Shown here piece after piece: positions 7,239-49,318 of a DNA stretch of 64,000 nt (the first letter of the stretch is position 1; each line of letters starts with the position of its first letter). Position numbers and translations under genes: made by a program. A model generated the notes under the pieces. The model searched no databases, was not told where the DNA came from, and saw only the letters and a list, made by a program, of their open reading frames with translations. The stretch lies in IMG/VR virus record IMGVR_UViG_3300027026_000014, positions 1,586 to 65,585 of that record. One strand, 5' to 3'. This DNA comes from a virus.

Positions 7239-7810
7239 AGGTCTATCAGCTCAAAAATCTCCCAGAGCGCTTCAAGGCGTTTCAGTTAGACCCCATGAAA
7301 CTGTGCCAACAGTTGGGGAATAACGATCTACTGCCGCTACTGCTGGGCCACTCCGGCGGCGATACACCCCTGCTCCCACACTGGGTAGATGGGGTATCAA
7401 GCTCCTTCGTTGCGCTAACCAAGCAGGGCAACGAAATACCAGACCTTTCCCTATGGGGAAGCAACCGCCTTATTCTGAACGCAAGAGCCTACGACGGATT
7501 AAAGCGATACCTGGAATCTGAAGGTGAGTTTCTTCCTGTATTAGCGGACGGCGAGCCAATGCACGTTTTCAACTGCCTGTCCTTCGGCAAAGAAGATGAC
7601 AAGCTGTGCGTGAAGCAATACGTAGACGGAGAGCGAGTCGGACTGGAAACCCTTGTCTTTGAGGATGAGGACGTTGCCAAACGATTCCTGTTCAAGTCAG
7701 AGCTGCAATTTGGTGGTGCGCTCTACTGTTCAACTTCCTTCAAGGCACTTTGCAACGAGTTGGGGCTACAAGGTCTCCGCTTCGACGAAGACCTCCTCAA
7801 CCCCTTCTAA
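7235..7810 (+). CDS. putative cognate immunity protein of AHH toxin
   Basis: Start overlaps toxin stop (ATGA), 191 aa, no signal peptide; position immediately 3' of toxin. Confidence 0.5.
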   Translation: MKVYQLKNLPERFKAFQLDPMKLCQQLGNNDLLPLLLGHSGGDTPLLPHWVDGVSSSFVALTKQGNEIPDLSLWGSNRLILNARAYDGLKRYLESEGEFLPVLADGEPMHVFNCLSFGKEDDKLCVKQYVDGERVGLETLVFEDEDVAKRFLFKSELQFGGALYCSTSFKALCNELGLQGLRFDEDLLNPF

Positions 7811-17165: not shown

Positions 17166-20100
17166 TTAGAGAGCCAATTCATTTTCGAGCCAATCACTCA
17201 GCCACGGTACCTGGTTGAATACCGGGAGTGACCGTTTAATTTTTGGGTAGGTCTCCTCGCCAGTCAGCAGCTGGTGCACATGCTGAATCGCCGGTCCGGC
17301 CACCGACGCCGCCGCACTGTCCGCAGAGTCAAAGCGAGTAGTGCCCAGTGCCAGTTCCAGCGGGCCGTAGATGCCCGCGCGGGAGACCAGCTGCTTGGTG
17401 TACTGCCAGCCGTCGAGGCGGTTGGTCGGCTCGTCCTCCTCCTCGTACTGGATCTCCTCGCGCAGTTCCAGCCCAAGGGCCGCCAGTGGCAGCAGCAACG
17501 TCCCCGCCGCCAGCGCCGGCAATGCGGCGTCGGTCAGCTTTGCCGCGGTGGAGCCGCCGCGCTCGCCGTAGCGGTTGCCAACCTCACGCGCAATACCGCC
17601 CAGCACCACCTTGCCATAGGAGTAGAAAAACGACTTCAACTGCCAGAACAGCATGTACCACGGGTTGCTGGCCCACACCGGACGCTGCGCCGCGTTCGGG
17701 CGCACGATGGACTCGTCCGTGTACTTGATAATCGCCGACTGCATCGCATTGGTGAGCGCCTGCATGTCCTGGTTCTGGTCCGGACTCCACGCCGGTGAGC
17801 CCAGTGCCTCCCAGTTCAGCACCTGTTCCGCAGTAATCCCCAGCTCATCCAGATAACGCTGCGCCCTTACATCACCGCGGTTGGCCTTGCGCGCGCTCGA
17901 GACAATGAAGCGCTCGCCCATCGCCGCCGCCAGGGTGCGGGTGAAGTTGGTCAGCATTTCCTGCCCGTTCAATTTGAACAGGGTCTCGGTCACCTTCTGC
18001 GCTCCAGCACTGGCATACGCCTGGCCGTACATTTCCTTCAGGGCGTGGTGCGTCATGCGCTGGTTCACCACGCCCATATCGCGGGCAAACTCGCGGGCGT
18101 CACCGTAGTTGCGGATCACCCTTACCGCCGTCTTCATGTTGGCCCACATTTCGTCGAGATCCCTGGCGCGGAAAATCGGCCCGGCCAGATCCGGCAATGA
18201 GGCCACGGCACTGAACAGCAGCGTCAGGGTCGATTCAAACACCTGCGCGTAGCTGAACGCCTTGCGTGCAACCGGCGGCATATCGGCGCCCAAACGGCCC
18301 ATGTAACCGTCCAGGATCACGCGGGCGCGGGTCTGGTTCGCATGGCTGTCCAGCTCACCGATCATGCGCTCGATCTTGGCGCTGGGGCTGTACCAGAACG
18401 CGAAGTCGCCGTCCGGACGCAGGTAACCGTACTCTATCGCCCGCTGCGCCATGGTGTTGAAGTCATCGCTGGTCAGGTCACCGCGCCCGGCCTGGATCAG
18501 CTTGGCCCGCAGGATATCCTTGTTGTTCGGGCTCTCGCGCAGGCCGCCGTCACTCTCCGGGTTCGGGTCCCAGCCAGTAATCGGCAGATAGTCGTGGAAC
18601 ATACCCTCGAACTCCGCCCGGGCAGTGGCCGAGTAGATGTAGTGCTCCAGCACCTGCTCCGGGTCACTGAACAGGAAGCCGCCATCGCGCAGTGCTGCCG
18701 CCACTTCCGGCTGGGTCAACTGGCGCTGGCTGCGGCTGTCCATACCTGGGCCGGTGGCGTGGGTGAATTCCGGCAGCGCAAATTCGTACCCCCCGGCACC
18801 ATTCAGGATGGCCTGGCGGATACTCTGCGCTTCATCGCGGCGGAAGGCACCGGTGGATTCCAGGGCGTCATAGAACGCCTCGGGATCAGATTCCAAGCGC
18901 TCGATGTTGTACATACGCGGGAAATACACCGGCAGGCGGCCGATGGTGCGCATCCGGGGTTTCAGATACTCGTCGCGGAAATGGTGCATCCACTCGTTGA
19001 TCAAGCGGGCATCGTCCGAGAGGTTGTTGGCTGCCTCCTCGGTGGTGTCGCTACCCTGCAGTTCCTCCAGCGCCGCCATATAGCGCTCGGTATCACCCCC
19101 GAACACGTCTTCTTTCAAGCGGCGCACCTGTTCCAGCCACTGGGCGCGGGCCACTTCGCGGCGGTGGAAGAAAGCGGGGCTGCGCACCCGGTCACCTGCC
19201 TGATGGAAAAAGGCGTTGGCCAAGCGCTTGCCGGCCGCTCCCATAACCCGCAGCTGGCGGTCGGCGGTGAACAACACCGGTACCGCCTTGATGGTGCCGT
19301 TATAAAAATTCTTGGTGCGCTCCCACATGCGGTTGGCAATACCCGGGCGCAGCTCATTGCGGATCGCCTCCGCCAGTGCATTGGGGGCAAAGGGCAATGG
19401 CGCCCTCCCCTCACCGTTCCCTTGCGGCCGATACTTGCCTTCCGCCATATCACGCGCAAAACGTTCCACCATGTAGCGCAGATCATTGCGGGTCAGGTTA
19501 ATACTGAAACCCAACTTGCGCAGTTGCGCGCGCAGCCACGACAGCACGCGCTGACTGAACGGCATAGGGCTATCGCTCTCGGCCACCCGCGCCAGTACTT
19601 CTTCAAGGTTGGCGTCGGTCAGTTCGGTACCGTAGGCCGGGGCCACGTGGTCCCGGTGGTAGGTCTGTAGTTCGGGATCGCTGGCGAGCGCCTTGCGTAG
19701 GTCGCGGAAGAATCGCGCGCGGGCTTCCGGCGCCATGGTGTCCAGTTGGAAGTGCGCAAACGCCTCGTGTTTCAGCGCCGATTCAATCTCTGCCGCTGGC
19801 ATCCGCTCGGCGAAGACCTGAATACGATTCTCGCCCGGCACATAATGCGCGGCACGACCGTCATCGAAGTTCAACCCGGCTTCCTGGTAGTCGGAATACA
19901 CCTCGATATCCAAATGCGCCAGGCCGGGGTACTGCTGTTGGAAACGCGCCACCGCCCGCTGCGCCTGCGCCAGCGTCATGCTGCCGGCACGCTTGGGGAT
20001 ATTTGGGCGCGTCATGGGGTCCGCCACTTCACGGTCGAGCTTGCGCTCCCTGTCCGGGTTGTAATTTTCAACACCGGATTCTCCGGAGATCTCCGCAACA

Positions 20101-23100
20101 TCGGTTTTGTCGTCGAAATAGGTTACGTCCCGTGAGGGGCGTCCAGTACGCTCGCTCACATAGTCATAACCTGCCTCCAGGCGCTGGTCGATCGCTTCCA
20201 GTTGCCGTTCGAGGTTGCTGATCTGTTCGGTGTAGCGTGCCTTGGCTTTTTCACTGGGCGCCTGCGAGCGCCAGCCGTACAGCTTGTTCAATTGCGCCGA
20301 TAATTTCGCGCGCTGACGCTCCAATCGGGTCAACCCCTGCTGGCCGTGCTGGGCCTCCTTGCGGGTTTTCAGTACATCCTTCACCCGGATTGGTTTTTCC
20401 GTATTGGAGATAACCAGCTCAGGGTTCAGGTTGGCCAGATTGAACGCGTCCTGGGTCAGCGGCTCTGCGGTAACCGGGTCAATGGTGGTACGGCCCATAT
20501 TCACCGGCTCCAAACCACGTACATAAAGCTCGGCCATGCCCGCCAGAAAATATTGGGAGTAGCTCTCCGGGCTGGACGTCTGGTCGTTGTCCATGGCCAA
20601 CCGCATACCGTATTCCGCGATGGTCGGGGTGTGCATCCATATGGTCTCACCGGACCCCGAATCGCGGAATTGCAGAACCTTGTTTGATTCGTCCTTGCGC
20701 CCCTTACGCGCCGCATTCCGTGCCTTGGTGGCGTTGTCCATCATTTTCGGCAGCATCGCATTCAGGCCTGACTCGGTGCCGAACACATCCGGATTGACCT
20801 GCTCGGGACGCTGGAAGCGGCGCACGACGAATTGACCGTCATCGTCGGCCTCAGCGAAGAACTCACTGTCCGGGTACTGCGCACTCAATGTGTCGATCTG
20901 TGCCTGTGCTTCCCGCAGTGACGGGTAGGTCAGCGGGCGCGCTTCAAGGCGGAAGGTAGGTTTGCCACGCTCGGAGCGTTGGCCTGTGGCTACCGGCACA
21001 AATTCGCGGGTTGGGAATTGGGCCTGTAGGGAGGCAATGGCATCGGCAAGGCGCTTGCCAAAAAGCGGCGGCTGCCGGCGTGCAGCATCGTCGGCTTTCT
21101 CGTCCGGGTCGTTCTGCTCGATGTCGACCAGACTGAATCCTGCGGCGTATTCGAACTCCTGCGCCTGCTCGTCGGTAATGGTTTCATCCGGAGAACGCAC
21201 GCGGGCGTCCGCTACGCCCAGCGGATTGAATTTGGCAGTGACCGAAGCGTAGTCTTCGCCGTCATCGAACAGCTCGCGCTGTTGGGAATCTTTTGCGGCA
21301 GTGGGCGCACTCTGCGGCTCCTCGGCGGGATTCAGGGTGCGCCAGTCCACCCGCTCACCAAACAGGTCGTGCGACGGGGGGATGATCGGGCGGTTTACTC
21401 CTTGAGCTGTTCCCGCTGACGCCGGGCGCCTTCCATCAATAGCTTCCGGCTGTGATCCAGATGCGCCCGGAACTCCTGTGGCGTCGGCGGCTTGATCCCC
21501 TCCCTCTCGGCCATCGCCACGTGACGCTTGTAGCTCTCCAGTTCCAGCCCGTTCAATTCCAGATAGTCTTCGCTCATCCTCTACCCTCTGCTGCCGCTCC
21601 GCCTGGGCAGACAGGGGGTCAGTGACCTCCACTACCTCGCCCGGCTGGGTCGCGGCTTCTTGTTGTTCCGCAACGGCGGCCGCCCGGTCGGCGTCCACCA
21701 CTTCAGCGGTGATAATATTACCCTCGTCATCCCGGGTCTGCACCACCGCGGTATTGGCCGGGTCGGCCAATTCAGACTTCGACTGCGCGTAGCCCAGCAC
21801 CCTCGCGCGCATATCGTCCCGCTGCGATGGGGGCGCATCCCGGTATGTCTGCCCATCGAACTCGCCCCGCACCAGCAGTACCCCTTCCGCAGTTTCCAAC
21901 AACTGCACATCCTCGGGGTGCGCCACGGCCTGCACCCGTGCCAGTACGTCAGGGTTTGCCCGGGATACAAAGAACGCATTTTTGCGGCCGCGGTTAAACT
22001 CCCGGTATTGGGCACGCAGATCCCCCACCGGCTCTGCGGTGGTGATTGCATTGATTTCCTCGACCTCGCTGGCCACCGGGGCGGGTGCCGGTGGCACGTC
22101 GATGGCTTCAACCTGTTCAGGTACCAGTTCGGTCGCCGTCGGCGCAGTCGGTAGTGGCGCTTCCAGAGACAGTACCTCCTCCGCCTGCGGCGCCGGCGCA
22201 TTGACCGGCTCATCCAGGTTCAGCCCCAATTGGTTGCCGCCACTCTGTACGGCCGCTGCCTTGCGAGCTTCCTCGACGAACAGATCGCCCTGCGCCAGAT
22301 TCACTTCCAGCGCCGTAGCAGTCGGCTCCGCGGGTGCGTCCTGCGGTACGGCCGGGGCGAAAGTGTTGTTGACCGAGTGCTCGAACATATCCAGCTGGCC
22401 TTCGGGCAACGCGCGCAGATCCAGTTCGCCCTGTTCCGGTATCTCACGGGGCGTGAAGCTGTTTCGGGCCTCGACAACCTCCGGTTGCTCCTCGAATCGC
22501 CCGTCTTCCTCCGCGCGGCGGAAGTACCGATTGCGCACCGCCTGATAGCCTGTGGGCAGGTTCGCCGCCGTAGACAGTCCGCCACCCACGGCCGCCCCTT
22601 TGGCGATTGCGGTTTTAAGTTCGCTGATACGTTCAGGATCAAATAGGTCCTGGCCGGTATGCGCCGAGACCGTAATAAAGTCCATGATGGTCTGCAGCCC
22701 CTCGGTGCCGCCCTCAACCACCGTCTGCATGCCTACGCGCTGGGCAACATCGGTAAAAGCACTGCGGATATCCTCCGGGGTTCGGCGCAGGCTGCGCGCC
22801 GCACCGCGCACCAGCATGTCCATCGGGGCGTATTCCAGCGCGGTTTTCGGGACACCTGTCAGCAGTGCAGCAGAAGTATCCTCCACACCGGCCTGTTGCA
22901 ATTCGGTAGCCGTCTCACCGGCAGACTGCGCATAGATATTCGCCAATGCCCCCGCTTTGGCTGTAGCCATCGGCAGTTCACGGATGCGTTTTTTCAGCAG
23001 CTCGCGCTGCTCCACCGGCATACGACGTAGCAGGGATTTGGTGAACTGCCGTTGGGCCGTGCGGCGGGCGGCCACTGCGCCGACACCGGCACCTGTGGCC

Positions 23101-23822
23101 GCCATGGCCAGGTCGCCCATCAGCTGCGGAGCCTGTTCCCCCAGTGCTTCCACAAAAAAGGTGAAAGCGGAATCCAGGTCATCGACGTCGTCCCATGACT
23201 GGATCTCCGCCGGGTTCAGCGCCGCCTCTTTGAAGTTGCGACGGATACCCTCCTCACCCCATTCCGACAGCATGTCAAAACCGGTCAGGTCGGCCACCGA
23301 CTTGGCCATGCCGTAATACATGCCCTGCATCTGGTTACCGCCGCGGGCGAACGCTTTTTCGAAGGTGCCGTGCCGGTTCTGGTTGTAGTTGGACTCGTCG
23401 TGGATACCCGCCTCGATAATTGCCGCATTACGCGCACGCTCCGCCGCGGTACCGGGGAGAATACCCTGCTCGGCATCGCGGCCACCGGCGAACTGTTCGA
23501 ACGCCAGATTCTCATCCTGCCCGAACTGCGCGGTAGCCAGGCCCTCGCGCACCAGGGCGGATTCCAGATCGCGTTGGTCAGGGTCACTGACCTCGGCCAG
23601 GGTGCGGCCGTAGCCGTCGGTCCCGGTGGGGTCGACGGTGGCGCCGCCGCGTACGAACTGCTCGGTGAACTGCCGGGCTTCTTCGCCTAGCAATTGGCCG
23701 TCGCCGCGACCGTGGTCAATCTCCGGGGTATTGATGCGGTTTAAGCGAATCCGTTCGCCCGAGTTCAGGTCCTCGATGGTATCGCCATCGAGGACGCGGA
23801 AACTGGGGGTATATCCGGCCAT
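17166..23822 (-). CDS. giant virion-associated protein (2218 aa), N-terminal SNase/thermonuclease-like domain; probable internal/ejection protein
   Basis: N-terminus VLDGDTI...IRLNRINTPEIDHG...GEEA matches staphylococcal-nuclease fold motif; size/position analogous to giant internal proteins of podoviruses; not a tape measure (no sheath/tube genes). Confidence 0.65.
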   Translation of the reverse strand: MAGYTPSFRVLDGDTIEDLNSGERIRLNRINTPEIDHGRGDGQLLGEEARQFTEQFVRGGATVDPTGTDGYGRTLAEVSDPDQRDLESALVREGLATAQFGQDENLAFEQFAGGRDAEQGILPGTAAERARNAAIIEAGIHDESNYNQNRHGTFEKAFARGGNQMQGMYYGMAKSVADLTGFDMLSEWGEEGIRRNFKEAALNPAEIQSWDDVDDLDSAFTFFVEALGEQAPQLMGDLAMAATGAGVGAVAARRTAQRQFTKSLLRRMPVEQRELLKKRIRELPMATAKAGALANIYAQSAGETATELQQAGVEDTSAALLTGVPKTALEYAPMDMLVRGAARSLRRTPEDIRSAFTDVAQRVGMQTVVEGGTEGLQTIMDFITVSAHTGQDLFDPERISELKTAIAKGAAVGGGLSTAANLPTGYQAVRNRYFRRAEEDGRFEEQPEVVEARNSFTPREIPEQGELDLRALPEGQLDMFEHSVNNTFAPAVPQDAPAEPTATALEVNLAQGDLFVEEARKAAAVQSGGNQLGLNLDEPVNAPAPQAEEVLSLEAPLPTAPTATELVPEQVEAIDVPPAPAPVASEVEEINAITTAEPVGDLRAQYREFNRGRKNAFFVSRANPDVLARVQAVAHPEDVQLLETAEGVLLVRGEFDGQTYRDAPPSQRDDMRARVLGYAQSKSELADPANTAVVQTRDDEGNIITAEVVDADRAAAVAEQQEAATQPGEVVEVTDPLSAQAERQQRVEDERRLSGIERAGTGELQASRGDGREGGDQAADATGVPGASGSQPEAIDGRRPASAGTAQGVNRPIIPPSHDLFGERVDWRTLNPAEEPQSAPTAAKDSQQRELFDDGEDYASVTAKFNPLGVADARVRSPDETITDEQAQEFEYAAGFSLVDIEQNDPDEKADDAARRQPPLFGKRLADAIASLQAQFPTREFVPVATGQRSERGKPTFRLEARPLTYPSLREAQAQIDTLSAQYPDSEFFAEADDDGQFVVRRFQRPEQVNPDVFGTESGLNAMLPKMMDNATKARNAARKGRKDESNKVLQFRDSGSGETIWMHTPTIAEYGMRLAMDNDQTSSPESYSQYFLAGMAELYVRGLEPVNMGRTTIDPVTAEPLTQDAFNLANLNPELVISNTEKPIRVKDVLKTRKEAQHGQQGLTRLERQRAKLSAQLNKLYGWRSQAPSEKAKARYTEQISNLERQLEAIDQRLEAGYDYVSERTGRPSRDVTYFDDKTDVAEISGESGVENYNPDRERKLDREVADPMTRPNIPKRAGSMTLAQAQRAVARFQQQYPGLAHLDIEVYSDYQEAGLNFDDGRAAHYVPGENRIQVFAERMPAAEIESALKHEAFAHFQLDTMAPEARARFFRDLRKALASDPELQTYHRDHVAPAYGTELTDANLEEVLARVAESDSPMPFSQRVLSWLRAQLRKLGFSINLTRNDLRYMVERFARDMAEGKYRPQGNGEGRAPLPFAPNALAEAIRNELRPGIANRMWERTKNFYNGTIKAVPVLFTADRQLRVMGAAGKRLANAFFHQAGDRVRSPAFFHRREVARAQWLEQVRRLKEDVFGGDTERYMAALEELQGSDTTEEAANNLSDDARLINEWMHHFRDEYLKPRMRTIGRLPVYFPRMYNIERLESDPEAFYDALESTGAFRRDEAQSIRQAILNGAGGYEFALPEFTHATGPGMDSRSQRQLTQPEVAAALRDGGFLFSDPEQVLEHYIYSATARAEFEGMFHDYLPITGWDPNPESDGGLRESPNNKDILRAKLIQAGRGDLTSDDFNTMAQRAIEYGYLRPDGDFAFWYSPSAKIERMIGELDSHANQTRARVILDGYMGRLGADMPPVARKAFSYAQVFESTLTLLFSAVASLPDLAGPIFRARDLDEMWANMKTAVRVIRNYGDAREFARDMGVVNQRMTHHALKEMYGQAYASAGAQKVTETLFKLNGQEMLTNFTRTLAAAMGERFIVSSARKANRGDVRAQRYLDELGITAEQVLNWEALGSPAWSPDQNQDMQALTNAMQSAIIKYTDESIVRPNAAQRPVWASNPWYMLFWQLKSFFYSYGKVVLGGIAREVGNRYGERGGSTAAKLTDAALPALAAGTLLLPLAALGLELREEIQYEEEDEPTNRLDGWQYTKQLVSRAGIYGPLELALGTTRFDSADSAAASVAGPAIQHVHQLLTGEETYPKIKRSLPVFNQVPWLSDWLENELAL

Positions 23823-42216: not shown

Positions 42217-43077
42217 GTGAATTTCACTCCAAAACAAATCGGCTTCGGCTTGCTGGGATTCTTTATCTTTTGCGTCATTATGGGCGGCTGGTACACGGTA
42301 CCAGAAGGCCACGTCGGTATTGTGAAGCGCTTTAGCCAGGCGCAGTACCAGGTTGACCCCGGCCTGCACTTCAAAATTCCGTTTATCGAAAGCGTAGAAG
42401 AAATCGAAGTGCGTACCCGCAAGAATGAGGAGCAGATGCCCTCCTCTACGGCCGAGCAGATGCCGCTGAATGTCCATGTCAGCGTCAACTGGACCGTACA
42501 GAAAGATGCGGCGTTCGAGCTGTTCAAAAAGTATGGCGGCCTGGCCCAGTTCGAGAGCCGGGTCCTCGATCCCCGATTCCGCTCCGCGACCAAGGCAGCC
42601 CTGCCTAAATTCGAAGCAGTGCAGCTCATTCAGGATCGCAATACAGCCATCAACCTGATTGAGTCCAACCTGCTCGGGGAGCTGGAAGGCTTCCCGGTAA
42701 CCATCGACAACGTGCAGATCGAGAACATTGTTCTGCCCCCGAAATATGTGCAGTCGATCGAAACCAAGCAAACCGAAAAGAACCTGGCGGATGCCGAAAA
42801 ACACAAACTGGAACGCCAGCGCCTCGAAGCCCTGCGTGAGGTAAATACCGCAGACGCAAAAGCCCAGGGCATCCTGAAAATCGCCAAGGCGGAAGCTGAA
42901 GGCATCGCCATGAAAGGTGAGGCGGAAGCCAAAGCCATCGCCGCCAAAGGCACAGCCCTGCGCAACAACCCGCTACTGGTCGAACTGACCCAGGCCGAAA
43001 GCTGGGATGGCAAGTTGCCACAGACCGTACTGGGCAACGGCGCCATGCCGATCATGGACCTACGTGCAAGCCGGTAA
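42217..43077 (+). CDS. SPFH/band-7 (prohibitin/HflC-like) membrane protein
   Basis: N-terminal TM then GWYTVPEGHVGIVKRFSQ...DPGLHFKIPFIESVEEIEVR typical SPFH domain, coiled-coil C-terminus. Confidence 0.75.
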   Translation: MNFTPKQIGFGLLGFFIFCVIMGGWYTVPEGHVGIVKRFSQAQYQVDPGLHFKIPFIESVEEIEVRTRKNEEQMPSSTAEQMPLNVHVSVNWTVQKDAAFELFKKYGGLAQFESRVLDPRFRSATKAALPKFEAVQLIQDRNTAINLIESNLLGELEGFPVTIDNVQIENIVLPPKYVQSIETKQTEKNLADAEKHKLERQRLEALREVNTADAKAQGILKIAKAEAEGIAMKGEAEAKAIAAKGTALRNNPLLVELTQAESWDGKLPQTVLGNGAMPIMDLRASR

Positions 43078-44054: not shown

Positions 44055-45320
44055 ATGAATCTAACCCGCCCTGGCATACTGCACCTGCGTATAGTTCGCA
44101 ATGCCGCAGGTACCGATGCAGACCGTCAATATTTGCGACAGGTCTTCAATGCCACCCCGGAAGTAACCCAAATAATAAACGTCGCCAGCGAAGACCTCCC
44201 GGAGTTCTTCCGTGTTGACGGGTGGTCACACTACGTTGGATTTTCTTATTGTGGCGGAAATTCCTGGTCTCGATATCTACCGGAACCGACCCGGCTGCAA
44301 GATTTCCTGAAATGGCTACTCCCCCTGGTCCAGGTCGAGCCTGGTCAGGTTCTCGGTTATTACTGGGAAGATGACACCCCTGCCCCGGTGATCCTCCGTG
44401 CACGTGAGGCCGTCGAACTCCCCCAGCATGTACCCGGTGCCAACCCGCCGATTCCGGATATGGCTGTTATTGACGATATCCCCTCACTCACCCAGCCAAA
44501 CCGGGTCGACGTTGCAGGCGATAACGGCTGGGGCATGCTGTTCCCCGGCATCTACACCGAACGTAGCGACCTCAACGACGAAGATTGGCGCAGGGTCTGC
44601 GAGTACTACTATCAATCCCCCTACGGAGACATTACCAACCTGCGCGGATTCGAGGATTTCAATTACATCTACGTCTCGCAGATCAATGAGAAGGTCGACC
44701 AAGCCAACGCAGTCAACAACGAAATGGATATGAGCCGTGTCCCGCTGACCGGCGAACATATCCTGGAAGTTCTGCGCCACACCCAGGCTGCAGCAAGCTA
44801 CCTGACCCTGCGCCCCGGCGACTACGTAGATGCGCGCTATCTCGAGGCCGATGTTTACGAAAAAGTGGCACAGCGATTCGCCCTTGCGAGCCAGCCCGGA
44901 TCGGCTGCCGGCACCAATTGTGATGCCGACCTTAGTGTCCTGTACCTGGATCAAAATGGCATTTATCAGCGTGCCGTTACAGTCCCTACCGGCGAACTGC
45001 GCGAACTGGTTGCCGCAGAGGTACTACAAGCACGAGTACCACTGCGCAAAGGCGACTGGATCGTGACCGAACACCTGCCCCAGGCCGTACAAGTCGCGAT
45101 CTCAACTGTGTTCGAAACTGCGGGGTGCCCTTACGTCGGTTCCCGAACCGAGGGCGGCCCCTGCAACCCGGGCTACAAAGCGCTCTACTGGGATGCCAAC
45201 GACAAACAGTCCTGGACCGCCACTGAGGACGCGCCAGTATTGGCCGGTCGCCAGCTAACCCCAGACCTCGTTCTCGGGGGTTGGTACTCAGTCAGTGATT
45301 GCGAGACTGCCGCTGCTTAA
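44055..45320 (+). CDS. hypothetical protein (421 aa), first gene of Ubl/E1/JAB-containing block
   Basis: GAGGA RBS; no recognisable motif. Confidence 0.55.
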   Translation: MNLTRPGILHLRIVRNAAGTDADRQYLRQVFNATPEVTQIINVASEDLPEFFRVDGWSHYVGFSYCGGNSWSRYLPEPTRLQDFLKWLLPLVQVEPGQVLGYYWEDDTPAPVILRAREAVELPQHVPGANPPIPDMAVIDDIPSLTQPNRVDVAGDNGWGMLFPGIYTERSDLNDEDWRRVCEYYYQSPYGDITNLRGFEDFNYIYVSQINEKVDQANAVNNEMDMSRVPLTGEHILEVLRHTQAAASYLTLRPGDYVDARYLEADVYEKVAQRFALASQPGSAAGTNCDADLSVLYLDQNGIYQRAVTVPTGELRELVAAEVLQARVPLRKGDWIVTEHLPQAVQVAISTVFETAGCPYVGSRTEGGPCNPGYKALYWDANDKQSWTATEDAPVLAGRQLTPDLVLGGWYSVSDCETAAA

Positions 45321-45330
45321 TCGGCCCCAC

Positions 45331-45350
45331 TATATACGCAATGCGAATAC
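45331..45350 (+). promoter_or_regulatory. palindromic operator/promoter motif copy 8 (TATATACGCAATGCGAATAC)
   Basis: Between 421-aa gene and Ubl gene. Confidence 0.45.
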
Positions 45351-45423
45351 ACACCGGAGACCGCTGGCCACGGTCCCCGGGTATCAAACCTAAGGCCAAA
45401 GATCACAACAGAGGATTACATCC

Positions 45424-45636
45424 ATGATCGACGTAAAAGTAGTGAAAGTACCTGGCGCCCAAGTTGAAGTAGCACTGGAAGACGGCGCCACCGTTCGTGA
45501 AGCCCTCGAGTACGCCGGCAAGACCGTCGACGAAGGCCAGACCGTACAGGTGAACGGCACCCAGGCCGACCTGGACACCCCGCTGACCGATGGCGCCCGC
45601 GTGGTAATTGCGAAAGGCGCCAAGGGTAACCGCTAA
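45424..45636 (+). CDS. ThiS/MoaD-family ubiquitin-like beta-grasp protein with C-terminal extension (…VVIAKGAKGNR)
   Basis: VQVNG....LDTPLTDGARVVI matches ThiS/MoaD signature (V.VNG....L.DGD.V.I) but lacks terminal GG. Confidence 0.7.
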   Translation: MIDVKVVKVPGAQVEVALEDGATVREALEYAGKTVDEGQTVQVNGTQADLDTPLTDGARVVIAKGAKGNR

Positions 45637-45667
45637 CCCTACCGGCCAGGGCCGCTGCTACCGGCCC

Positions 45668-45759
45668 CCAATACTCGCTCCGTGCGGGTATTGGAAACCC
45701 CCCAAAACCTGAGCCCGAGTTGGCGACCGGGAATTCGCCCTCAGCGGCGGGGGGTTTCC
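45668..45759 (+). promoter_or_regulatory. structured intergenic element between Ubl and E1 genes: 7-bp hairpin CCAATAC/GTATTGG nested next to perfect 11-bp inverted repeat GGAAACCCCCC ... GGGGGGTTTCC (44-nt loop)
   Basis: Sequence; only long gap in an otherwise overlapping operon. Confidence 0.4.
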
Positions 45760-45788
45760 AATATCCGCACCACAATTGGAAGGAAACC

Positions 45789-46469
45789 ATGTCGATTTCA
45801 TTGATCCGCCACCAGGAGATTTTTAACCCGGTACACCACCAGTTACCGGTCTCCATCATCGGCGCCGGCGCTACCGGCAGCCGTGTCTTCGAAGCCCTGA
45901 TCAAACTGGGCGTCGATGACCTCACCGTCTATGACTTCGACACGGTTGAGCCCCACAACCTGGCCAACCAGCTCTACGGTCAGCATCACGTCGGTATCCC
46001 GAAAGTACAGGCACTGGCCGAGTGGTACACCAGCTACATCGAGGAGCAGATCCCAGACAGCATCCGGTTCATCAACCGCCGTGTGCCTGATGCTCAGGCA
46101 CCACTCAAAGGCGTAGTGTTCCTGCTCACCGACACCATGGAAAGCCGCCGCGAGATTTTCAATGCCGAACTGGATATGAACCCGGAGATCATGTACGTCA
46201 TCGAAACCCGCATGGCGTCCAGCTACGGCAACATCCTGAGTTTCAACCCCAACAACCCCCTCGAAGGCGAGCGCTGGCTTGCCACCCTGATCGACGATGA
46301 CGAAGCCGAAGTCAGCGCCTGCGGCGCCTCCATTTCGGTGGGGCCCACCGCCAGTGTCATCGCCAACTGGGCGGTATGGCAGTACATCCTGCTCTGCCGC
46401 GGCGAACCCCTCGACGCCCGCTTGAACCTCAACCTGCAAGTCGCCGTTCTCGGCGCGGAGAAACTGTGA
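45789..46469 (+). CDS. E1-like (ThiF/MoeB-family) adenylyltransferase
   Basis: IIGAGATGSRVFEALIKLGVDDLTVYDFDTVEPHNLANQ = nucleotide-binding GxGxxG plus D.D.VE.SNL.RQ motif of E1/ThiF/MoeB; GGAAGGAAA RBS. Confidence 0.8.
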   Translation: MSISLIRHQEIFNPVHHQLPVSIIGAGATGSRVFEALIKLGVDDLTVYDFDTVEPHNLANQLYGQHHVGIPKVQALAEWYTSYIEEQIPDSIRFINRRVPDAQAPLKGVVFLLTDTMESRREIFNAELDMNPEIMYVIETRMASSYGNILSFNPNNPLEGERWLATLIDDDEAEVSACGASISVGPTASVIANWAVWQYILLCRGEPLDARLNLNLQVAVLGAEKL

Positions 46470-47539
46470 TGACCGCTCTGACCAAATTGCCGGCAAAGAC
46501 ATCGGCCAAAAAACCGACCAACAAAACACCGGCCAAACCAAAACGCCAGTTCAAGTACCCAGTGAAGTCCAGCGATACTCTGCGCAAATCCACACCGCTG
46601 GTAGTACCTGCACCGCCGACGGCGCCGACCGTGTTCTACACACCACGCGCCTGGGAAATCATCCGTTTTCTGATCGATTACAACGAGGAAGAAGTCGGTT
46701 GGCTGGGCACCGTTGACCAGCTGGACGATGGCAATCTGTTGATCGATGAGATATTTGTCCCCAAGCAACGCGTGCACGGCACCGAGACCGAAATCGACAC
46801 CGACGACTACCACCGCCTGTGCAACGAGTTGCTGGACACCGACCGTTACGCTGACAGCAAGGGGCGCCCGCGCCTCATCTACTGGGGCCACTCCCACGTG
46901 GACATGGGGGTCTCCCCCTCCGCACAAGATGAAGAACAGGTGGCCGAGTACCTGGAAGAAGTTCCCCTTTTCATCCGTGGCATTTACAACAAAAAAGGGG
47001 CCTCTAAAGTCGATGTGTACGACGTTAACGCCAACCTGATCCATCAATGTGTGGATGAGCGCATCCAGCACAATGCCCTGAGCCCGGAGGACCGCGCCGA
47101 ACTCAAGGCACTGGTCGATCGCAACGTGCTGCCCGCCCGCGACAACTGGTCAGATCTGCGCAACTGGAACGACCAGTGGCAAGGCTACAGAAGCCTCTTT
47201 GACGAGGATGATGATTTCCTCCCGGGCAATGGCAGTCAGACCATTCGCGACTGCTTCGCTGTCGGATACCCACCGGCCTACGTAGTCAATTACACCCCGG
47301 CCATCAGCGCGTTCGACGAAGAACGCCTGCGCGAAGAATTGGAAGGTCTCGGCGTAGCCCCGGATGTAGAGGAATGGAGTCTCTATACCGCCGACCCGGA
47401 AGACCCGCGTCTTACTGATCTGAGCGACCTGGAAATCATTTACTACGGCACCGTGCTCGGCGATGACTGGCTCGACGCCATTATGCCGTGGCACCAGCGC
47501 GAGGAAGCAGACAACGACGCCCCCAAACTTGCGAGCTAA
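46469..47539 (+). CDS. JAB/JAMM (MPN+) metallopeptidase domain protein with ~170-aa C-terminal extension
   Basis: E(EEVGWLG)...WGHSHVDMGVSPSAQD = E...HxH...S..D JAMM zinc motif; start overlaps E1 stop (TGATG). Confidence 0.75.
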   Translation: MTALTKLPAKTSAKKPTNKTPAKPKRQFKYPVKSSDTLRKSTPLVVPAPPTAPTVFYTPRAWEIIRFLIDYNEEEVGWLGTVDQLDDGNLLIDEIFVPKQRVHGTETEIDTDDYHRLCNELLDTDRYADSKGRPRLIYWGHSHVDMGVSPSAQDEEQVAEYLEEVPLFIRGIYNKKGASKVDVYDVNANLIHQCVDERIQHNALSPEDRAELKALVDRNVLPARDNWSDLRNWNDQWQGYRSLFDEDDDFLPGNGSQTIRDCFAVGYPPAYVVNYTPAISAFDEERLREELEGLGVAPDVEEWSLYTADPEDPRLTDLSDLEIIYYGTVLGDDWLDAIMPWHQREEADNDAPKLAS

Positions 47540-47554
47540 TCGAGGATTCCACCC

Positions 47555-49318
47555 ATGCCGGGATTAACCGCCGAACTGATCGCGATCGATGAATACGATC
47601 GCATCGAAGACTGCGCCATCGTCGCCACAACTGCCGACCCACTGGCCCCAGGCGACTATGTCCTCACCGCTAACCTGAGCCAGGCTCAGTATGAATATGT
47701 GGCGAGTGCCTTTATGCAATTGCGCGGGCACGGACCTACCGCCTTCGACGAAGGCCCCGAATATAACCACTGGCGCAACTACCGCGCTTATGCCTGGGTC
47801 GCCACCAACGATTCCCTGTTGAACCTGCAGATCGATGAAGATGTCCACCGACGTGAGCGCACCCTGCGTGATCTGGAAATCCTCACCGGTCGGCCCGCCC
47901 CCCAACAGGACGAAGCCCAGCCCCGCGAACCCGAACCTGTAACCCGCAACCCGGAACCCCCGGTTATCCACTTCGATCCGACACAGCTGCGGAAGGAAGA
48001 ACTGATCACCGCCCGTGATCAGCAACACCGCACCATCCGAAATTACCGGCGCGACCTCGCCTACCTGCGGGAGACCATAAAAGAACACGAGCAGTGGATC
48101 GCCATGAATGAAGAATGGCAAAACCTGCCGGAAACCGCTCTGTCAGAGGCACTCCGGAACTATATCCGCGATAAAGCATTTAGCCCGGGTGATGTTCTCT
48201 ACCGCACCAATGAACATCATCGCCTGGTCACCCAACTTGCGGATACCGAGCGGAACATCCGCCACGCCGCCAATTTACTACTGAATCACAGCCGCGAACA
48301 CGCGCGGCTGCGGGGCAACCCACTCACCTTCACCGTCGAAGGTATGGATGTGGAACTACAGAACATCCCACAATATGTCCCGGGCAGCGTGCGGATCGAT
48401 GCCGCCGAACACACAATCAGCTGGGTTCTGACCGGTGTCCTGATGCAGCCGGATAACAACCCGTACCGCTGGCTGAACGGCGGGACCATACCCACCATCC
48501 GGCTACCAGATACCCGTGTGATATTGCGTTTTCAGGATAATGGGGCCGTAAACGTCTATCTCAAGTTCCCCACAGACGAATCGCCAAGATGTGCCCCTAC
48601 AGGCTATGCCGGCCACGGCACACCGCATCCGCACGTACTGAACCGCTACGCCCCCTGCCTGGGCGATTTCGAGGGCGCCGTCACCAATGCCGCGCAATCC
48701 GGAGATCTGCGTACTGCGAACGATATCCTGCTGGCCTTCCTGGGCCAGGCGTACAACGCCGACTCCGCTGGCATGGAATGGTGGCGCTGGGCCCTGACGG
48801 ACTGGGATTCCCCGGAGGAGTACCCCTGGTTTGAAGTTGGGGATCACCGCGGCAACGAAGACTATTTCTGGGACAGCAGCAGCGGCAAGAACCTGAATGC
48901 CCGACTCGATGCCGAAGGTAACCTGACCCTGAATTGGGTCGAACATACCGGAGGCAACCGCGGTTTCGATCAGCTGTGTGGGAGCGAACGGTGCGATCAC
49001 TCAGAAGACGAGTATCAGGATGACGACGGTGATATTCGCTGCAACCACTGCGACGCTCTGACTTGGGGCGAAGGCCGCTATCACGGGGATTGCGACTGCT
49101 GCGAAGACTGTCAGAACGAGCATTGCACCTGCTGCGGTATCTGTGATGGTACGGATCGCGACGAGTGTGGATGCTGCACCAACTGCGAGAACGTCGAGGG
49201 CGAGTGCACATGCTGCCCTATCTGCGATACCTCCGACCGCGACGAATGCGGTTGCTGCCAGGAGTGCGGTGACACGGATGCTGACACCTGCGGATGCCAC
49301 ACATCAGAAAACGAATAA
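47555..49318 (+). CDS. large hypothetical protein (587 aa) with C-terminal tandem Cys-rich repeats (C.CC.ICD..DRDECGCC)
   Basis: 15-nt spacing after JAB gene; C-terminus CTCCGICDGTDRDECGCCTNCENVEGECTCCPICDTSDRDECGCCQECGDTDADTCGCH. Confidence 0.6.
   Translation: MPGLTAELIAIDEYDRIEDCAIVATTADPLAPGDYVLTANLSQAQYEYVASAFMQLRGHGPTAFDEGPEYNHWRNYRAYAWVATNDSLLNLQIDEDVHRRERTLRDLEILTGRPAPQQDEAQPREPEPVTRNPEPPVIHFDPTQLRKEELITARDQQHRTIRNYRRDLAYLRETIKEHEQWIAMNEEWQNLPETALSEALRNYIRDKAFSPGDVLYRTNEHHRLVTQLADTERNIRHAANLLLNHSREHARLRGNPLTFTVEGMDVELQNIPQYVPGSVRIDAAEHTISWVLTGVLMQPDNNPYRWLNGGTIPTIRLPDTRVILRFQDNGAVNVYLKFPTDESPRCAPTGYAGHGTPHPHVLNRYAPCLGDFEGAVTNAAQSGDLRTANDILLAFLGQAYNADSAGMEWWRWALTDWDSPEEYPWFEVGDHRGNEDYFWDSSSGKNLNARLDAEGNLTLNWVEHTGGNRGFDQLCGSERCDHSEDEYQDDDGDIRCNHCDALTWGEGRYHGDCDCCEDCQNEHCTCCGICDGTDRDECGCCTNCENVEGECTCCPICDTSDRDECGCCQECGDTDADTCGCHTSENE

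What the first reader, a model, noticed from the sequence alone, without database searches (positions are those of the whole stretch)
44055..49318. Phage-encoded ubiquitin-like / E1 / JAB cassette flanked by two large unknown proteins
Five co-oriented genes in the prophage early arm: a 421-aa unknown, a 70-aa ThiS/MoaD-fold Ubl, an E1-like adenylyltransferase, a JAB/JAMM peptidase (stop/start overlap with E1) and a 587-aa protein with an extraordinary CC-rich C-terminal repeat. This triad is the signature of prokaryotic Ubl conjugation (Bil/Bub-type antiphage systems, phage tail-modification modules) or of sulfur-carrier chemistry (CysO/Mec+, QbsCDE, TtuBCD). The Ubl ends KGAKGNR rather than GG, implying JAB-dependent trimming to expose a reactive Gly. 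I recognise no E2 or catalytic-Cys partner, so the chemistry (protein tagging of host or phage targets versus thiocarboxylate-based biosynthesis, for example a thio-modified nucleotide) is open. Inside a temperate phage replication/early module this is a candidate anti-defence or virion/DNA-modification system that I cannot match to a described one.
Basis: partly seen in the sequence, partly recalled or inferred. Interest (0 to 1): 0.85.

Follow-up and report, generated by a model that had tools for sequence, protein, structure and literature searches.

The report
Phage-encoded ubiquitin-like conjugation system
A phage carries its own four-part ubiquitin-style protein-tagging kit (small tag, activating enzyme, a previously unrecognised conjugating enzyme and a trimming protease), the same kit is conserved in at least 60 uncultured phage contigs, and so viruses of bacteria, not only their hosts, probably use ubiquitin-like tagging.

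Summary
The five co-oriented genes are real and lie at the stated coordinates. The Ubl (Pfam ThiS), the E1 (Pfam ThiF) and the JAB (intact JAMM motif) are confirmed.

Residues ~262-432 form a UBC-like domain with an invariant HPH-x7-C-L-G-D-F motif (H358, C368):
- Profile-profile comparison with eukaryotic E2s aligns HPH to HPN and Cys to the catalytic Cys (P 2.9e-5; shuffles never come close).

Ubl, E1, JAB and this E2-like protein co-occur in about 60 viral or metagenomic loci, in at least five gene orders, usually beside PolA and a primase-helicase. The 421-aa gene has only one relative and is a lineage-specific accessory.

Ubl homologues end K-G-N, sometimes with a tail, and some are head-to-tail di-Ubls. 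This fits JAB trimming after the Gly.

The E1 is a minimal 226-aa enzyme with an invariant crossover-loop Cys, unlike the Bil E1.

I read this as a complete phage-borne Ubl conjugation cascade: a new variant of the Bil/Bub/CBASS kind. Sulfur-carrier chemistry is unlikely. Targets and biological role are unknown.

The parts
44055..45320 (+). 421-aa lineage-specific accessory protein. It carries about three copies of a ~100-aa 'PGDY' module that is also found at the N-terminus of the E2-like protein.
   Evidence: No family hit above noise. Only one relative (P0124, 37% identity) among 1.84e9 representative proteins. That relative sits directly upstream of a 70-aa ThiS-like gene and an E1 (L053). 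An HMM built from the N-terminal module of g587/P0122 hits this ORF at E 3.1e-5, the best non-self hit among all window ORFs.
45424..45636 (+). 70-aa beta-grasp ubiquitin-like protein (pro-form). The predicted mature C-terminus is Gly68, followed by an Asn-Arg cap.
   Evidence: Pfam ThiS 25.2 bits, above the cut-off of 22.5. Of 40 distinct homologues, 31 end K-G-N, with or without a tail. Head-to-tail di-Ubl precursors occur in L009/L010 and L013/L016. A GAGGA Shine-Dalgarno sequence precedes the start.
45683..45771 (+). Long RNA hairpin (22-bp stem) in the Ubl-E1 intergenic spacer. It may be an mRNA stability or attenuation element that sets the Ubl:enzyme ratio (inference).
   Evidence: MFE -72.8 kcal/mol over 45634-45792, z -4.0 against 200 shuffles. 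The arms occur only here in the window.
45789..46469 (+). Minimal E1-like adenylyltransferase, 226 aa, a single ThiF-type domain. Features: GxGxxG at 45861-45881, invariant Cys178 at 46320-46322, no Zn CxxC pairs, and the NLxRQ arginine replaced (NLANQ, 45954-45971).
   Evidence: Pfam ThiF 68.5 bits. No NCBIfam equivalog cut-off is reached. The nearest solved relatives are UBA5, MoeB and Cap2, matching only over the Rossmann part. The family alignment shows the invariant Cys in E[VT]S[AP]CG. Coordinates.
46466..47539 (+). JAB/JAMM metallopeptidase, 357 aa: domain at residues ~45-225 plus a variable C-terminal tail. Translationally coupled to E1 (ATGA overlap).
   Evidence: E76, H142, H144, S152 and D155 are invariant in 37 homologues. 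hhalign against six JAMM proteins gives probability 91%, P 9.2e-7, score 47.1, versus shuffles at 12.7 +/- 3.1. 19 of 37 members hit PADLOC JAB models. Pfam Prok-JAB scores only 17.6 bits, below the cut-off of 25.
47555..49318 (+). 587-aa E2-like conjugating protein. It consists of an N-terminal PGDY module, a coiled-coil region, a UBC-like core and a Cys-rich tail.
   Evidence: The core is conserved next to Ubl/E1/JAB in essentially every complete locus. See the sub-parts below.
47636..47929 (+). N-terminal ~100-aa 'PGDY' module of the E2-like protein: one copy here, three in the relative P0122. Function unknown; it may bind partners or targets.
   Evidence: Alignment of the four copies, and an HMM hit to the 421-aa protein.
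48338..48850 (+). UBC-like (E2) core, residues 262-432. The predicted catalytic motif HPH358-360 ... C368-L-G-D-F lies at 48626-48670.
48977..49318 (+). Cys-rich C-terminal tail: 26 Cys in 113 aa, with two 21-aa repeats at 49124-49186 and 49205-49267. Presumed to bind metal, and possibly to act as a target-recognition or E3-like module (inference).
   Evidence: Read directly from the sequence. Comparable Cys-rich or CxxC tails recur on E2-like proteins of L005, L001, L012, L014 and L017. There is no DNA-level tandem repeat.

Best explanation
The region encodes a complete, phage-borne ubiquitin-like protein conjugation cascade.

Shown:
- Four co-evolving components are present: a 70-aa beta-grasp Ubl, a minimal ThiF-type E1, a JAMM peptidase with an intact metal site, and a protein whose core has the UBC (E2) fold signature with an invariant HPH-x7-Cys.
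- They stay together in many phage contigs through several gene rearrangements.

Inferred mechanism:
1. The JAB cuts the pro-Ubl after Gly68, removing Asn-Arg. In relatives it removes a lone Asn or separates tandem Ubl units, as in polyubiquitin processing.
2. The E1, probably a homodimer like UBA5 or MoeB, adenylates the exposed carboxylate. It probably takes the Ubl as a thioester on its invariant Cys178.
3. The Ubl passes to Cys368 of the 587-aa E2-like protein.
4. That protein delivers the Ubl to lysines of target proteins. Its coiled coil, N-terminal PGDY module and Cys-rich tail would serve as built-in target selectors, since no separate E3 is seen.
5. The JAB may also reverse conjugates.

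The 421-aa protein shares the PGDY module and is a lineage-specific adaptor or substrate.

The cassette is co-oriented and partly translationally coupled, and it sits within the early/replication gene block. I therefore think it acts during lytic growth, on host or phage proteins (takeover, counter-defence or control of replication). The target is unknown.
For: - Domain identities: ThiS and ThiF by Pfam. The JAMM motif is invariant, with hhalign P 9.2e-7 and PADLOC JAB hits in 19 of 37 members.
- Co-occurrence: Ubl-E1-JAB-E2L in 28 loci, plus at least four other gene orders. Seeding from the E2 motif instead recovers 35 loci, all inside E2-like ORFs, with E1, JAB and Ubl alongside wherever the flank allows.
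- The E1 family has an invariant crossover-loop Cys.
- Ubl C-termini: 31 of 40 end K-G-N with or without a tail. Di-Ubl precursors exist.
- Precedent: E. aridi BilA carries a one-residue cap (Ala98) that its JAB removes (PMC10557695).
- Operon structure: ATGA overlap of E1 and JAB, and a 15-nt gap between JAB and the E2-like gene.
- Context: a PolA homologue lies within the flank in 29 loci and a primase-helicase homologue in 28.
Against: - No biochemical step is shown here.
- Foldseek against the PDB found nothing significant.
- No Pfam, PADLOC or PDB sequence model recognises the E2-like domain.
- The E1 family lacks the arginine of the NLxRQ ATP-binding motif (NLANQ), so its adenylation activity is assumed rather than shown.
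- It also lacks the CYS domain and UFD that canonical E1s use to load E2s.
- The nearly invariant Asn after Gly is not explained by a simple cap model.
- The target and the biological role are pure inference.
Confidence: 0.68

Rival explanations
1. The chemistry is the same (Ubl conjugation), but the role is prophage-encoded anti-phage defence or superinfection exclusion. Like Bil, it would tag proteins of a competing phage to protect the lysogen.
For: The component list is the same as Bil: Ubl, E2, JAB, E1. All characterised bacterial Ubl conjugation systems are defence systems (PMC10557695, PMC11601596). The element lies next to bacterial genes and has an HTH repressor-like gene, so it may be temperate.
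Against: The cassette is embedded in the replication gene block, co-oriented with it and tightly spaced or overlapping within itself. It is not in a moron or defence hotspot. The same position next to PolA and primase-helicase holds in about 29 viral contigs. No PADLOC defence model matches beyond generic E1 and JAB hits. It was not found in bacterial chromosomes outside phage context: a single-protein scan of 185,579 genomes, which detects only close relatives, gave one MAG contig.
Confidence: 0.15
2. The system is E2-independent, as in archaeal SAMP/UbaA/JAMM sampylation. The HPH-Cys protein is not an E2 but a conserved substrate, scaffold or unrelated enzyme.
For: Foldseek found no E2 match. 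No E2 HMM hits the protein. The minimal E1 lacks E2-docking domains. SAMP systems conjugate without an E2 (established knowledge; PMC4443979 was listed).
Confidence: 0.12
3. The system is a sulfur carrier. The Ubl is thiocarboxylated by the E1, as with ThiS/ThiF, MoaD/MoeB, CysO or TtuB, to make a thio-modified nucleotide, cofactor or DNA/tRNA base for the phage.
For: The Ubl's best Pfam hit is ThiS. The E1's best NCBIfam hits are ThiF models. The E1 is a single-domain enzyme like ThiF and MoeB. The cassette is adjacent to DNA-metabolism genes.
Against: Every ThiF or MoeB equivalog score is far below its cut-off: 56.9 against 159, 51.5 against 275, 25.1 against 376. There is no Gly-Gly terminus. 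The E1 has no Zn CxxC pairs. No rhodanese, cysteine desulfurase, PP-loop thiolase, ThiG or MoaE appears in the annotated neighbourhoods examined. The obligatory E2-like partner has no role in sulfur transfer.
Confidence: 0.07
4. The chemistry is like MccB/microcin C. The conserved C-terminal Asn, not the Gly, is the reactive residue. The E1 would convert it via a succinimide into a protein-nucleotide (phosphoramidate) conjugate.
For: 31 of 40 Ubl homologues have Asn right after K-G, and 17-18 end exactly at that Asn. From established knowledge, MccB is a ThiF-family enzyme that acts on a C-terminal Asn.
Against: Asn is replaced by Ala, Ser or Gly in diverged members, and it is internal in di-Ubl fusions and in tailed forms. 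The E1 has no N-terminal peptide-clamp domain (226 aa). The model gives no role to the JAB or the E2-like protein.
Confidence: 0.04

Closest known systems
Bil (BilABCD, types I and II) bacterial ISG15-like anti-phage ubiquitination system
   Same: It has the same four parts: Ubl, E2, JAB/JAMM peptidase and E1. No E3 is present, and the E2 is thought to pick targets itself. In E. aridi the Ubl carries a one-residue cap that the JAB removes (PMC10557695, PMC11601596).
   Different: - The system here is encoded by phages, inside the replication gene block, not in bacterial defence islands.
- The E1 is a 226-aa single adenylation domain. It has no IAD, no mobile CYS domain and no Zn site.
- The E2-like domain keeps an HPN-like HPH upstream of the Cys, whereas the Bil-type (class 6d) E2 lacks that His (PMC1779556) and E. 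aridi BilB has its conserved His after the Cys (PMC10557695).
- The E2-like domain is embedded in a 300-750-aa protein with a coiled coil and variable extra domains.
- The Ubl is a single 69-70-aa beta-grasp ending K-G-N.
- No defence HMM matches.
Bub (6E/DUF6527) bacterial ubiquitination-like pathway
   Same: Both use a homodimer-type minimal E1 that resembles UBA5. Both have a JAB that processes a Ubl precursor. Both include multi-beta-grasp Ubl variants (PMC11601596).
   Different: Bub works through Tyr and Ser oxyesters, lacks catalytic Cys residues and always has a DUF6527 serine protease. Here both E1 and E2-like proteins have invariant Cys residues, and no DUF6527 was detected.
Type II CBASS Cap2/Cap3
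   Same: Both have E1 and E2 activities plus a JAB. The Cap3-type PADLOC JAB models are the ones that weakly hit this JAB family, and Cap2 models hit the E1's Rossmann part.
   Different: In Cap2 the E1 and E2 are fused, and the conjugated substrate is the CD-NTase itself. Here there is a free Ubl and separate E1 and E2, and no CD-NTase or effector was seen in the loci whose gene calls were inspected.
Eukaryotic/archaeal canonical E2 (UBC) enzymes and the minimal E1 UBA5
   Same: The E2-like core shares the HP[NH]-x7-Cys-Leu motif spacing, the alpha-2 helix and the overall fold. UBA5 is the nearest solved E1 by sequence.
   Different: The match is too weak for Pfam UQ_con or Foldseek. The third motif residue is His, not Asn. 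There are long N-terminal coiled-coil and C-terminal additions.
ThiS/ThiF and MoaD/MoeB sulfur-carrier pairs (including the JAB-processed CysO and QbsE types)
   Same: A small beta-grasp protein, a single-domain adenylyltransferase, and JAB trimming of a C-terminal cap.
   Different: There is no Gly-Gly terminus and no sulfur-transfer or biosynthetic partner. Scores are far below the equivalog cut-offs. An E2-like partner is obligatory.

Membership tests
Bil (BilABCD) | Operon encodes Ubl + E2 + JAB/JAMM peptidase + E1 | tested here: met
   All four components were identified and are syntenic.
Bil (BilABCD) | [quoted passage not shown] | tested here: not met
   The E1 is 226 aa with one ThiF domain and no CxxC pairs. 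Its Cys lies in a short crossover loop.
Bil (BilABCD) | E2 lacks the classical HPN His and has a conserved His after the Cys (PMC1779556 class 6d; PMC10557695) | tested here: not met
   HPH is invariant, seven or more residues before the Cys.
Bil (BilABCD) | Ubl ends in a reactive Gly, sometimes capped and pre-processed by the JAB | tested here: met
   K-G followed by N or a short tail occurs in 36 of 40 homologues. This is the sequence feature only; cleavage itself cannot be tested here.
Bil (BilABCD) | Recognised by defence-system HMMs (PADLOC) | tested here: not met
   There are no hits for the Ubl or the E2-like protein. The E1 and JAB match only generic E1-E2 and JAB models. I did not confirm which Bil-specific models PADLOC 2.0 contains.
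Bil (BilABCD) | Protects a bacterial host against phage | not testable with these tools
   The context is a phage replication gene block.
Bub (6E/DUF6527) | E1 and E2 lack catalytic Cys (Tyr/Ser oxyesters), and a DUF6527 serine protease is present | tested here: not met
   Cys is invariant in both E1 and E2-like proteins. None of the five proteins has a DUF6527 hit.
Type II CBASS Cap2/Cap3 | E1-E2 fusion acting on a CD-NTase, with an effector gene | tested here: not met
   The genes are separate. PADLOC E1-E2 models match only about 60 residues of the Rossmann fold. No CD-NTase appears among the called genes of the loci inspected.
ThiS/ThiF, MoaD/MoeB sulfur carriers | NCBIfam equivalog score, Gly-Gly terminus, Zn CxxC pairs in the E1, and sulfur-transfer or synthase partner genes | tested here: not met
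   Scores are 56.9 against 159, 51.5 against 275 and 25.1 against 376. The terminus is K-G-N-R. There are no CxxC pairs. No partner genes are present.
Canonical UBC/E2 fold | alpha/beta UBC fold | tested here: met
Canonical UBC/E2 fold | HPN motif about 7-8 residues before the catalytic Cys | tested here: met
   The variant HPH-x7(9)-C is invariant, and hhalign aligns it to HPN...C at P 2.9e-5.
Canonical UBC/E2 fold | Matches Pfam UQ_con or Prok-E2 models | tested here: not met
   None of 37 scanned members has such a hit.
JAMM/MPN+ metallopeptidases | E ... HxH-x7-S-x2-D metal and catalytic motif | tested here: met
   The motif is invariant in 37 sequences. hhalign gives probability 91%. Pfam Prok-JAB is below its cut-off: 17.6 against 25.
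MccB/MccA peptide-nucleotide synthetases | E1 with an N-terminal peptide clamp, and a substrate with an obligatory C-terminal Asn | tested here: not met
   The E1 has no N-terminal domain. Asn is frequent but is replaced or internal in 9 or more homologues.
PRTRC (ParB-related, ThiF-related cassette) | TIGR03736 PRTRC_ThiF and partner models | tested here: not met
   The score is 28.6 bits against a cut-off of 144.75. No other PRTRC model is hit.

The most novel reading that the evidence does not exclude
Bacteriophages run their own E1-E2-Ubl-DUB cascade during infection, covalently tagging host proteins (defence or replication factors) or their own. This would be the viral counterpart of Bil, Bub and CBASS, and the first ubiquitin-like conjugation system native to phages. 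Its E2 family keeps the classical HP[N/H]-x7-Cys signature that bacterial Bil E2s have lost. Paired with a UBA5-like minimal E1, this makes phages a possible reservoir or vehicle in the early evolution of ubiquitin signalling.
Probability: 0.45. Interest if true: 0.9.

Novelty: new variant of a known kind. Interest (0 to 1): 0.78.

Why it matters
Ubiquitin-like conjugation in bacteria has so far been described as a host weapon against phages (CBASS Cap2, Bil, Bub). This cassette suggests that phages carry a full tagging machine of their own. It is conserved across at least 60 uncultured phage contigs, and its conjugating enzyme is invisible to the Pfam, PADLOC, NCBIfam and PHROGs releases searched here.

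If it is active, it would:
- open a new class of phage takeover or counter-defence mechanisms;
- provide a very small, orthogonal E1/E2/Ubl/DUB set for protein-tagging tools;
- add a data point on how the E1-to-E2 relay can work with a minimal E1.

Possibly related JAB-E1 modules occur in cultured phages (Flavobacterium FpV4; crAss-like DAC17), and an E2-like-E1 pair occurs in Xanthomonas PhiXhv-12. These make the question experimentally approachable.

Tried and rejected
- **Homologue search with the full 587-aa protein** returned only itself and one relative. The Cys-rich tail saturated the word index. The core alone returned nothing. I collected homologues from neighbouring genes in loci seeded by the JAB instead.
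- **Sequence searches for the E2-like domain failed.** PDB searches with E2-like profiles gave only coiled-coil noise or nothing. Pfam scans of 37 E2-like members gave nothing. The PADLOC scan gave only SMC-like coiled-coil noise.
- **Foldseek against the PDB** with the good model found nothing significant. The afdb50 library was unavailable.
- **JAB profile against PDB sequences** gave nothing at E 0.01. A single-sequence search gave only weak BRCC36 hits.
- **GenBank phage collection:** DNA search for the region found no match. tblastn with the JAB found one unverified gut scaffold, and the E2-like core found none.
I replaced it with a degenerate DNA motif scan.
- **The look-up of encoding contigs** for the window's own 421-aa and 587-aa proteins found no record, so the source contig could not be inspected beyond the window.
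- **Tandem Repeats Finder** on the Cys-rich tail found no DNA repeat.
- **The two genes after the E1 in the Xanthomonas jumbo phage** are not recognisable as Ubl or JAB.
- **Literature:** eight successful searches found no description of a phage Ubl/E1/E2/JAB cassette.
- **Ideas considered and rejected:** PRTRC, MccB-like chemistry and sulfur-carrier chemistry. See the membership tests.

Full report
**1. Observation**

- 44055-45320: 421 aa.
- 45424-45636: 70 aa.
- An E1 ORF ending at 46469.
- 46466-47539: 357 aa when read from the ATG that overlaps the E1 stop as ATGA.
- 47555-49318: 587 aa.

Pfam recognises the 70-aa protein as ThiS (25.2 bits, cut-off 22.5) and the E1 as ThiF (68.5 bits). 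It gives the fourth protein a sub-threshold Prok-JAB hit (17.6 bits, cut-off 25).

The 421-aa and 587-aa proteins hit nothing above noise in Pfam, NCBIfam, PADLOC or PHROGs; the only match is a sub-threshold PHROGs hit for the 421-aa protein (E 0.078).

The E1 most probably starts at the ATG at 45789, giving 226 aa. That codon follows an AAGGA Shine-Dalgarno sequence, and all homologues begin to align there.

The Ubl ends KGAKGNR. The last 113 residues of the 587-aa protein hold 26 cysteines, including two 21-aa repeats of the form CTCCxICDxxDRDECGCCxxC.

**2. Setting**

- The left 8 kb of the window holds bacterial-type genes: a DUF6351 tannase-like protein, a CoiA-like nuclease and an AHH nuclease toxin.
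- Next comes a - strand structural block: a tail fibre with an S74 chaperone, a 2218-aa protein with an SNase domain, a P22-like portal and a large terminase.
- Then comes a + strand early/replication block: an SPFH protein, the cassette, PolA, a DUF5906 primase-helicase, a PD-(D/E)XK nuclease, an SNF2 helicase, an Rv2179c-like exonuclease and an HTH protein.

There are no tRNA genes and no DNA similarity to GenBank phages. PolA is about 30% identical to the polymerases of Pseudomonas KPP25-like and Rhizobium phages.

'Prophage early arm' is therefore a fair description, although no integrase was seen in the window.

**3. The cassette is conserved, but as four genes rather than five**

The JAB has 269 detectable relatives in the 5.8-billion-cluster collection. 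All are metagenomic, and none has a precomputed Pfam domain.

Their contigs show the order 70-aa gene, ThiF, JAB, large protein, followed by PolA and a primase-helicase.

Fetching viral contigs with the JAB and scanning every ORF with HMMs built here gave these gene orders:

| Gene order | Loci |
|---|---|
| Ubl-E1-JAB-E2L | 28 |
| Ubl-E2L-JAB-E1 | 6 |
| E2L-E2L-JAB-E1-Ubl | 3 |
| E2L-Ubl-JAB-E1 | 2 |
| Other permutations | several |

Nearly all exceptions were contigs cut at the cassette. Two were not: the gut scaffold L002, which shows only JAB-E1, and the jumbo phage locus L001, which shows only E2L-E1.

I also ran the reciprocal test. A degenerate DNA pattern for HPH-x7-CLGDF should match by chance roughly 0.1 times; that figure is my own estimate from base frequencies and an assumed collection size. 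It found 35 viral loci. All matches lie inside E2-like ORFs, and E1, JAB and Ubl lie alongside wherever the flank allows.

A PolA homologue lies within the fetched flank in 29 loci and a primase-helicase homologue in 28.

The 421-aa protein is different. It has a single relative (37% identity) among 1.84 billion representative proteins. That relative sits directly upstream of a ThiS-like gene and an E1, in the same sample that holds the closest JAB and 587-aa relatives. So the five-gene layout exists only in this narrow lineage.

The 421-aa protein does share a repeated ~100-aa 'PGDY' module with the N-terminus of the 587-aa protein. An HMM of that module hits it at E 3.1e-5, the best non-self hit among all window ORFs. 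I read it as a lineage-specific accessory.

**4. The 587-aa protein contains the missing E2**

Alignment of 22-27 homologues shows one conserved core, at residues ~262-432. Its invariant residues are H358, P359, H360, C368, G370, D371, F395, D403, A405 and G406. They form the motif HPH-x7-C-[LF]-G-D-[FY] ... F ... D-x-A-G.

This mirrors the HPN-x7-C-L-D signature of ubiquitin-conjugating enzymes. I tested the idea in three ways.

- **Profile-profile comparison.** The probability was 73.6%, P 2.9e-5, score 35.0. HPH aligned to HPN, the Cys aligned to the catalytic Cys, and the following helix aligned to alpha-2. The reversed E2 profile scored 8.8. 150 column shuffles averaged 11.6 (SD 2.1, maximum 18.8). 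100 block shuffles reached at most 19.9. The session's JAB and E1 alignments scored 13.6 and 16.5 against the same E2 profile.
- **Negative results.** Foldseek against the PDB found nothing significant. Neither Pfam nor PDB sequence searches recognise any member.

I conclude that the core is a highly diverged UBC-like domain. The fold-level evidence is moderate and the motif-level evidence is strong.

Around the core, most homologues carry an N-terminal coiled coil, which explains source names such as 'Lpp'. They also carry variable extensions. Cys-rich or CxxC tails recur in at least six lineages.

**5. The other three components**

*JAB.* E76, H142, H144, S152 and D155 are invariant in 37 homologues. 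19 of 37 members hit PADLOC JAB models.

*E1.* The family keeps the GxGxxG loop, the N-terminal Arg, the Lys and the Asp of the adenylation site. It also has an invariant Cys (Cys178 here) in E[VT]S[AP]CG, at the crossover-loop position of ThiF C184 and MoeB C187. That equivalence is my own reading of the alignment.

The E1 has no CxxC zinc pairs, no second adenylation domain and no inserted Cys domain. The Arg of the usual NLxRQ motif is replaced, giving NLANQ. Its nearest solved relatives by sequence are UBA5, MoeB and Cap2, and they match only over the Rossmann segment. Every NCBIfam ThiF, MoeB, SAMP-E1 or PRTRC model scores far below its cut-off.

*Ubl.* Among 40 distinct homologues:
- 31 have K-G-N. 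In 17-18 of these the Asn is the last residue; in the others, 1 to 24 more residues follow.
- A few have K-G-A, K-G-S, K-S-A-A or K-A-N instead.
- Two lineages encode head-to-tail di-Ubls, in which unit 1 ends KGN or KGS and runs straight into unit 2.

This is the pattern of a precursor cut after a small residue, as in polyubiquitin. It matches the one-residue Ala98 cap that the Bil JAB removes from E. aridi BilA (PMC10557695).

**6. Mechanism**

The parts and their linkage are shown. The rest is inferred:
- The JAB exposes Gly68.
- The E1 adenylates it and probably forms a Cys178 thioester.
- The Ubl moves to Cys368 of the E2-like protein.
- The accessory domains of that protein choose targets, since no E3 is present.
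- The JAB may also deconjugate.

E1, JAB and the E2-like gene overlap or are separated by only 15 nt (ATGA overlap; 15-nt gap). The Ubl gene is separated from them by a strong 22-bp hairpin (z -4.0), which might raise Ubl output relative to the enzymes.

The cassette's constant position in the replication block, and the fast-changing extensions of the E2-like protein, make me favour a role in lytic infection, acting on host or phage proteins. Nothing here identifies a target.

**7. Rivals**

- A Bil-like defence or superinfection-exclusion role for the lysogen cannot be excluded (0.15).
- E2-independent, SAMP-like conjugation, with the HPH-Cys protein as something else, is possible if the fold assignment is wrong (0.12).
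- Sulfur-carrier chemistry is unlikely (0.07). There is no Gly-Gly terminus and no zinc site. No sulfur-transfer or synthase partner appears in the annotated neighbourhoods examined. All scores are sub-threshold, and the E2-like partner is obligatory.
- MccB-like activation of the C-terminal Asn is an intriguing reading of the K-G-N terminus. However, the Asn is replaced or internal in several members, and the E1 has no peptide clamp (0.04).

**8. Comparison with known systems**

Functionally this is closest to Bil, which also has a Ubl, an E2, a JAB and an E1, has no E3, and pre-processes its Ubl with the JAB. It fails several defining features of Bil:
- the E1 architecture (IAD-AAD-CYS with Zn);
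- the E2 motif type;
- recognition by defence-system HMMs (PADLOC);
- a bacterial defence context.

It is not Bub, because Cys residues are present and DUF6527 is absent. It is not CBASS Cap2/Cap3, because E1 and E2 are not fused and there is no CD-NTase. It is not a ThiS or MoaD system, and it is not PRTRC.

The 2006 survey of prokaryotic Ubl systems lists phage TAPI/TAPK tail-assembly modules and bacterial E1/E2/JAB operons, but no cassette like this one (PMC1779556). A preprint on Asgard viruses notes viral ThiF/E1-like genes only. Eight literature searches found no description of a phage-encoded Ubl/E1/E2/JAB system.

No GenBank phage carries a close copy.

More distant relatives exist. 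A second subtype pairs the same E2-like motif with a different JAB (IHSHHTMGAFFSGTD). That JAB type sits directly upstream of the ThiF-like gene in cultured Flavobacterium phage FpV4 and in crAss-like Bacteroides phage DAC17. In both phages the preceding ORF carries an HSH ... Cys stretch (… PCLGEG in DAC17, … ECLIT in FpV4) that may be a diverged E2-like motif; the HMM match is not significant.

Xanthomonas jumbo phage PhiXhv-12 has a weak E2-like core plus an 'ECGCC' tail in the 892-aa protein upstream of its E1.

**9. Verdict**

It is corrected on the key point, because the E2 is there.

The system is a new variant of a known kind (ubiquitin-like conjugation). It is notable for being phage-borne and widespread in uncultured phages, and for being built from a minimal E1 and an unannotated E2 family.

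Confidence that it is a working four-part conjugation cascade is 0.68. Interest is 0.78.

Noticed in passing
window 45683-45771: A 22-bp-stem hairpin fills the spacer between the Ubl and E1 genes (MFE -72.8 kcal/mol over 45634-45792, z -4.0). It is not followed by a U-run and is unique in the window. It may be an mRNA processing or stability element that uncouples Ubl expression from enzyme expression.
   Followed up: partly
L054 (Flavobacterium phage FpV4) 2548-5618; L055 (Bacteroides crAss-like phage DAC17) 2335-5708: In both cultured phages a JAMM-motif protein (HSHxTMxxFFSGTD) sits directly upstream of the gene that FpV4 annotates as 'thiamine biosynthesis'/ThiF and DAC17 as hypothetical. 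The ORF before that carries 'YMHSH-x13-PCLGEG' (DAC17) or 'YMHSH-x13-ECLIT' (FpV4), which may be a diverged E2-like motif. My HMMs do not reach significance on it.
   Followed up: partly
L056, L058, L060, L066, L074, L085, L090: A second cassette subtype has the order 71-aa gene, E2-like protein (~450-590 aa, same HPH..CLGDF motif), a different JAB subfamily (IHSHHTMGAFFSGTD), a 145-aa gene, then E1.
   Followed up: partly
L001 (Xanthomonas phage PhiXhv-12) 2316-5690: In this jumbo phage the 892-aa hypothetical protein upstream of the ThiF-like gene has a weak E2-like core hit and a Cys-rich 'ECGCC' tail like the one in the window. The two genes after the E1 are not recognisable as Ubl or JAB.
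   Followed up: partly
L009/L010 (Ubl ORF at L009 2472-2990) and L013/L016 (9542-10006); L030 7697-10197, L010, L013, L021: Some relatives encode head-to-tail di-Ubl precursors. Several carry two tandem E2-like paralogues.
   Followed up: partly
JAB homologues P0004, P0007, P0012, P0025, P0080, P0081 and others (alignment A1, C-terminal columns): Many JAB homologues end with an acidic stretch followed by a short [DN]-P-F-[YFGI] motif a few residues from the C-terminus. It looks like a docking peptide. The window protein instead has MPWHQ.
   Followed up: no
window 45954-45971 and E1 family alignment: The whole E1 family has N-L-[AP]-N-Q where ThiF, MoeB and E1 enzymes have N-L-x-R-Q. The conserved ATP-contacting arginine is missing.
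   Followed up: no
window 17166-23822 (- strand): A 2218-aa protein in the structural block carries an N-terminal staphylococcal-nuclease (SNase) domain. It may be an ejected internal virion protein.
   Followed up: no
window 42217-43077: An SPFH/Band 7 membrane-scaffold protein (Pfam 115.7 bits) is encoded in the phage early region, just upstream of the cassette.
   Followed up: no
window 4001-7810: A low-GC island (0.47) next to the phage holds a CoiA/DUF6035 nuclease-like gene and an AHH-family HNH nuclease toxin, followed by a small ORF that may be its immunity gene. This may be a polymorphic-toxin or defence island at the prophage border.
   Followed up: no
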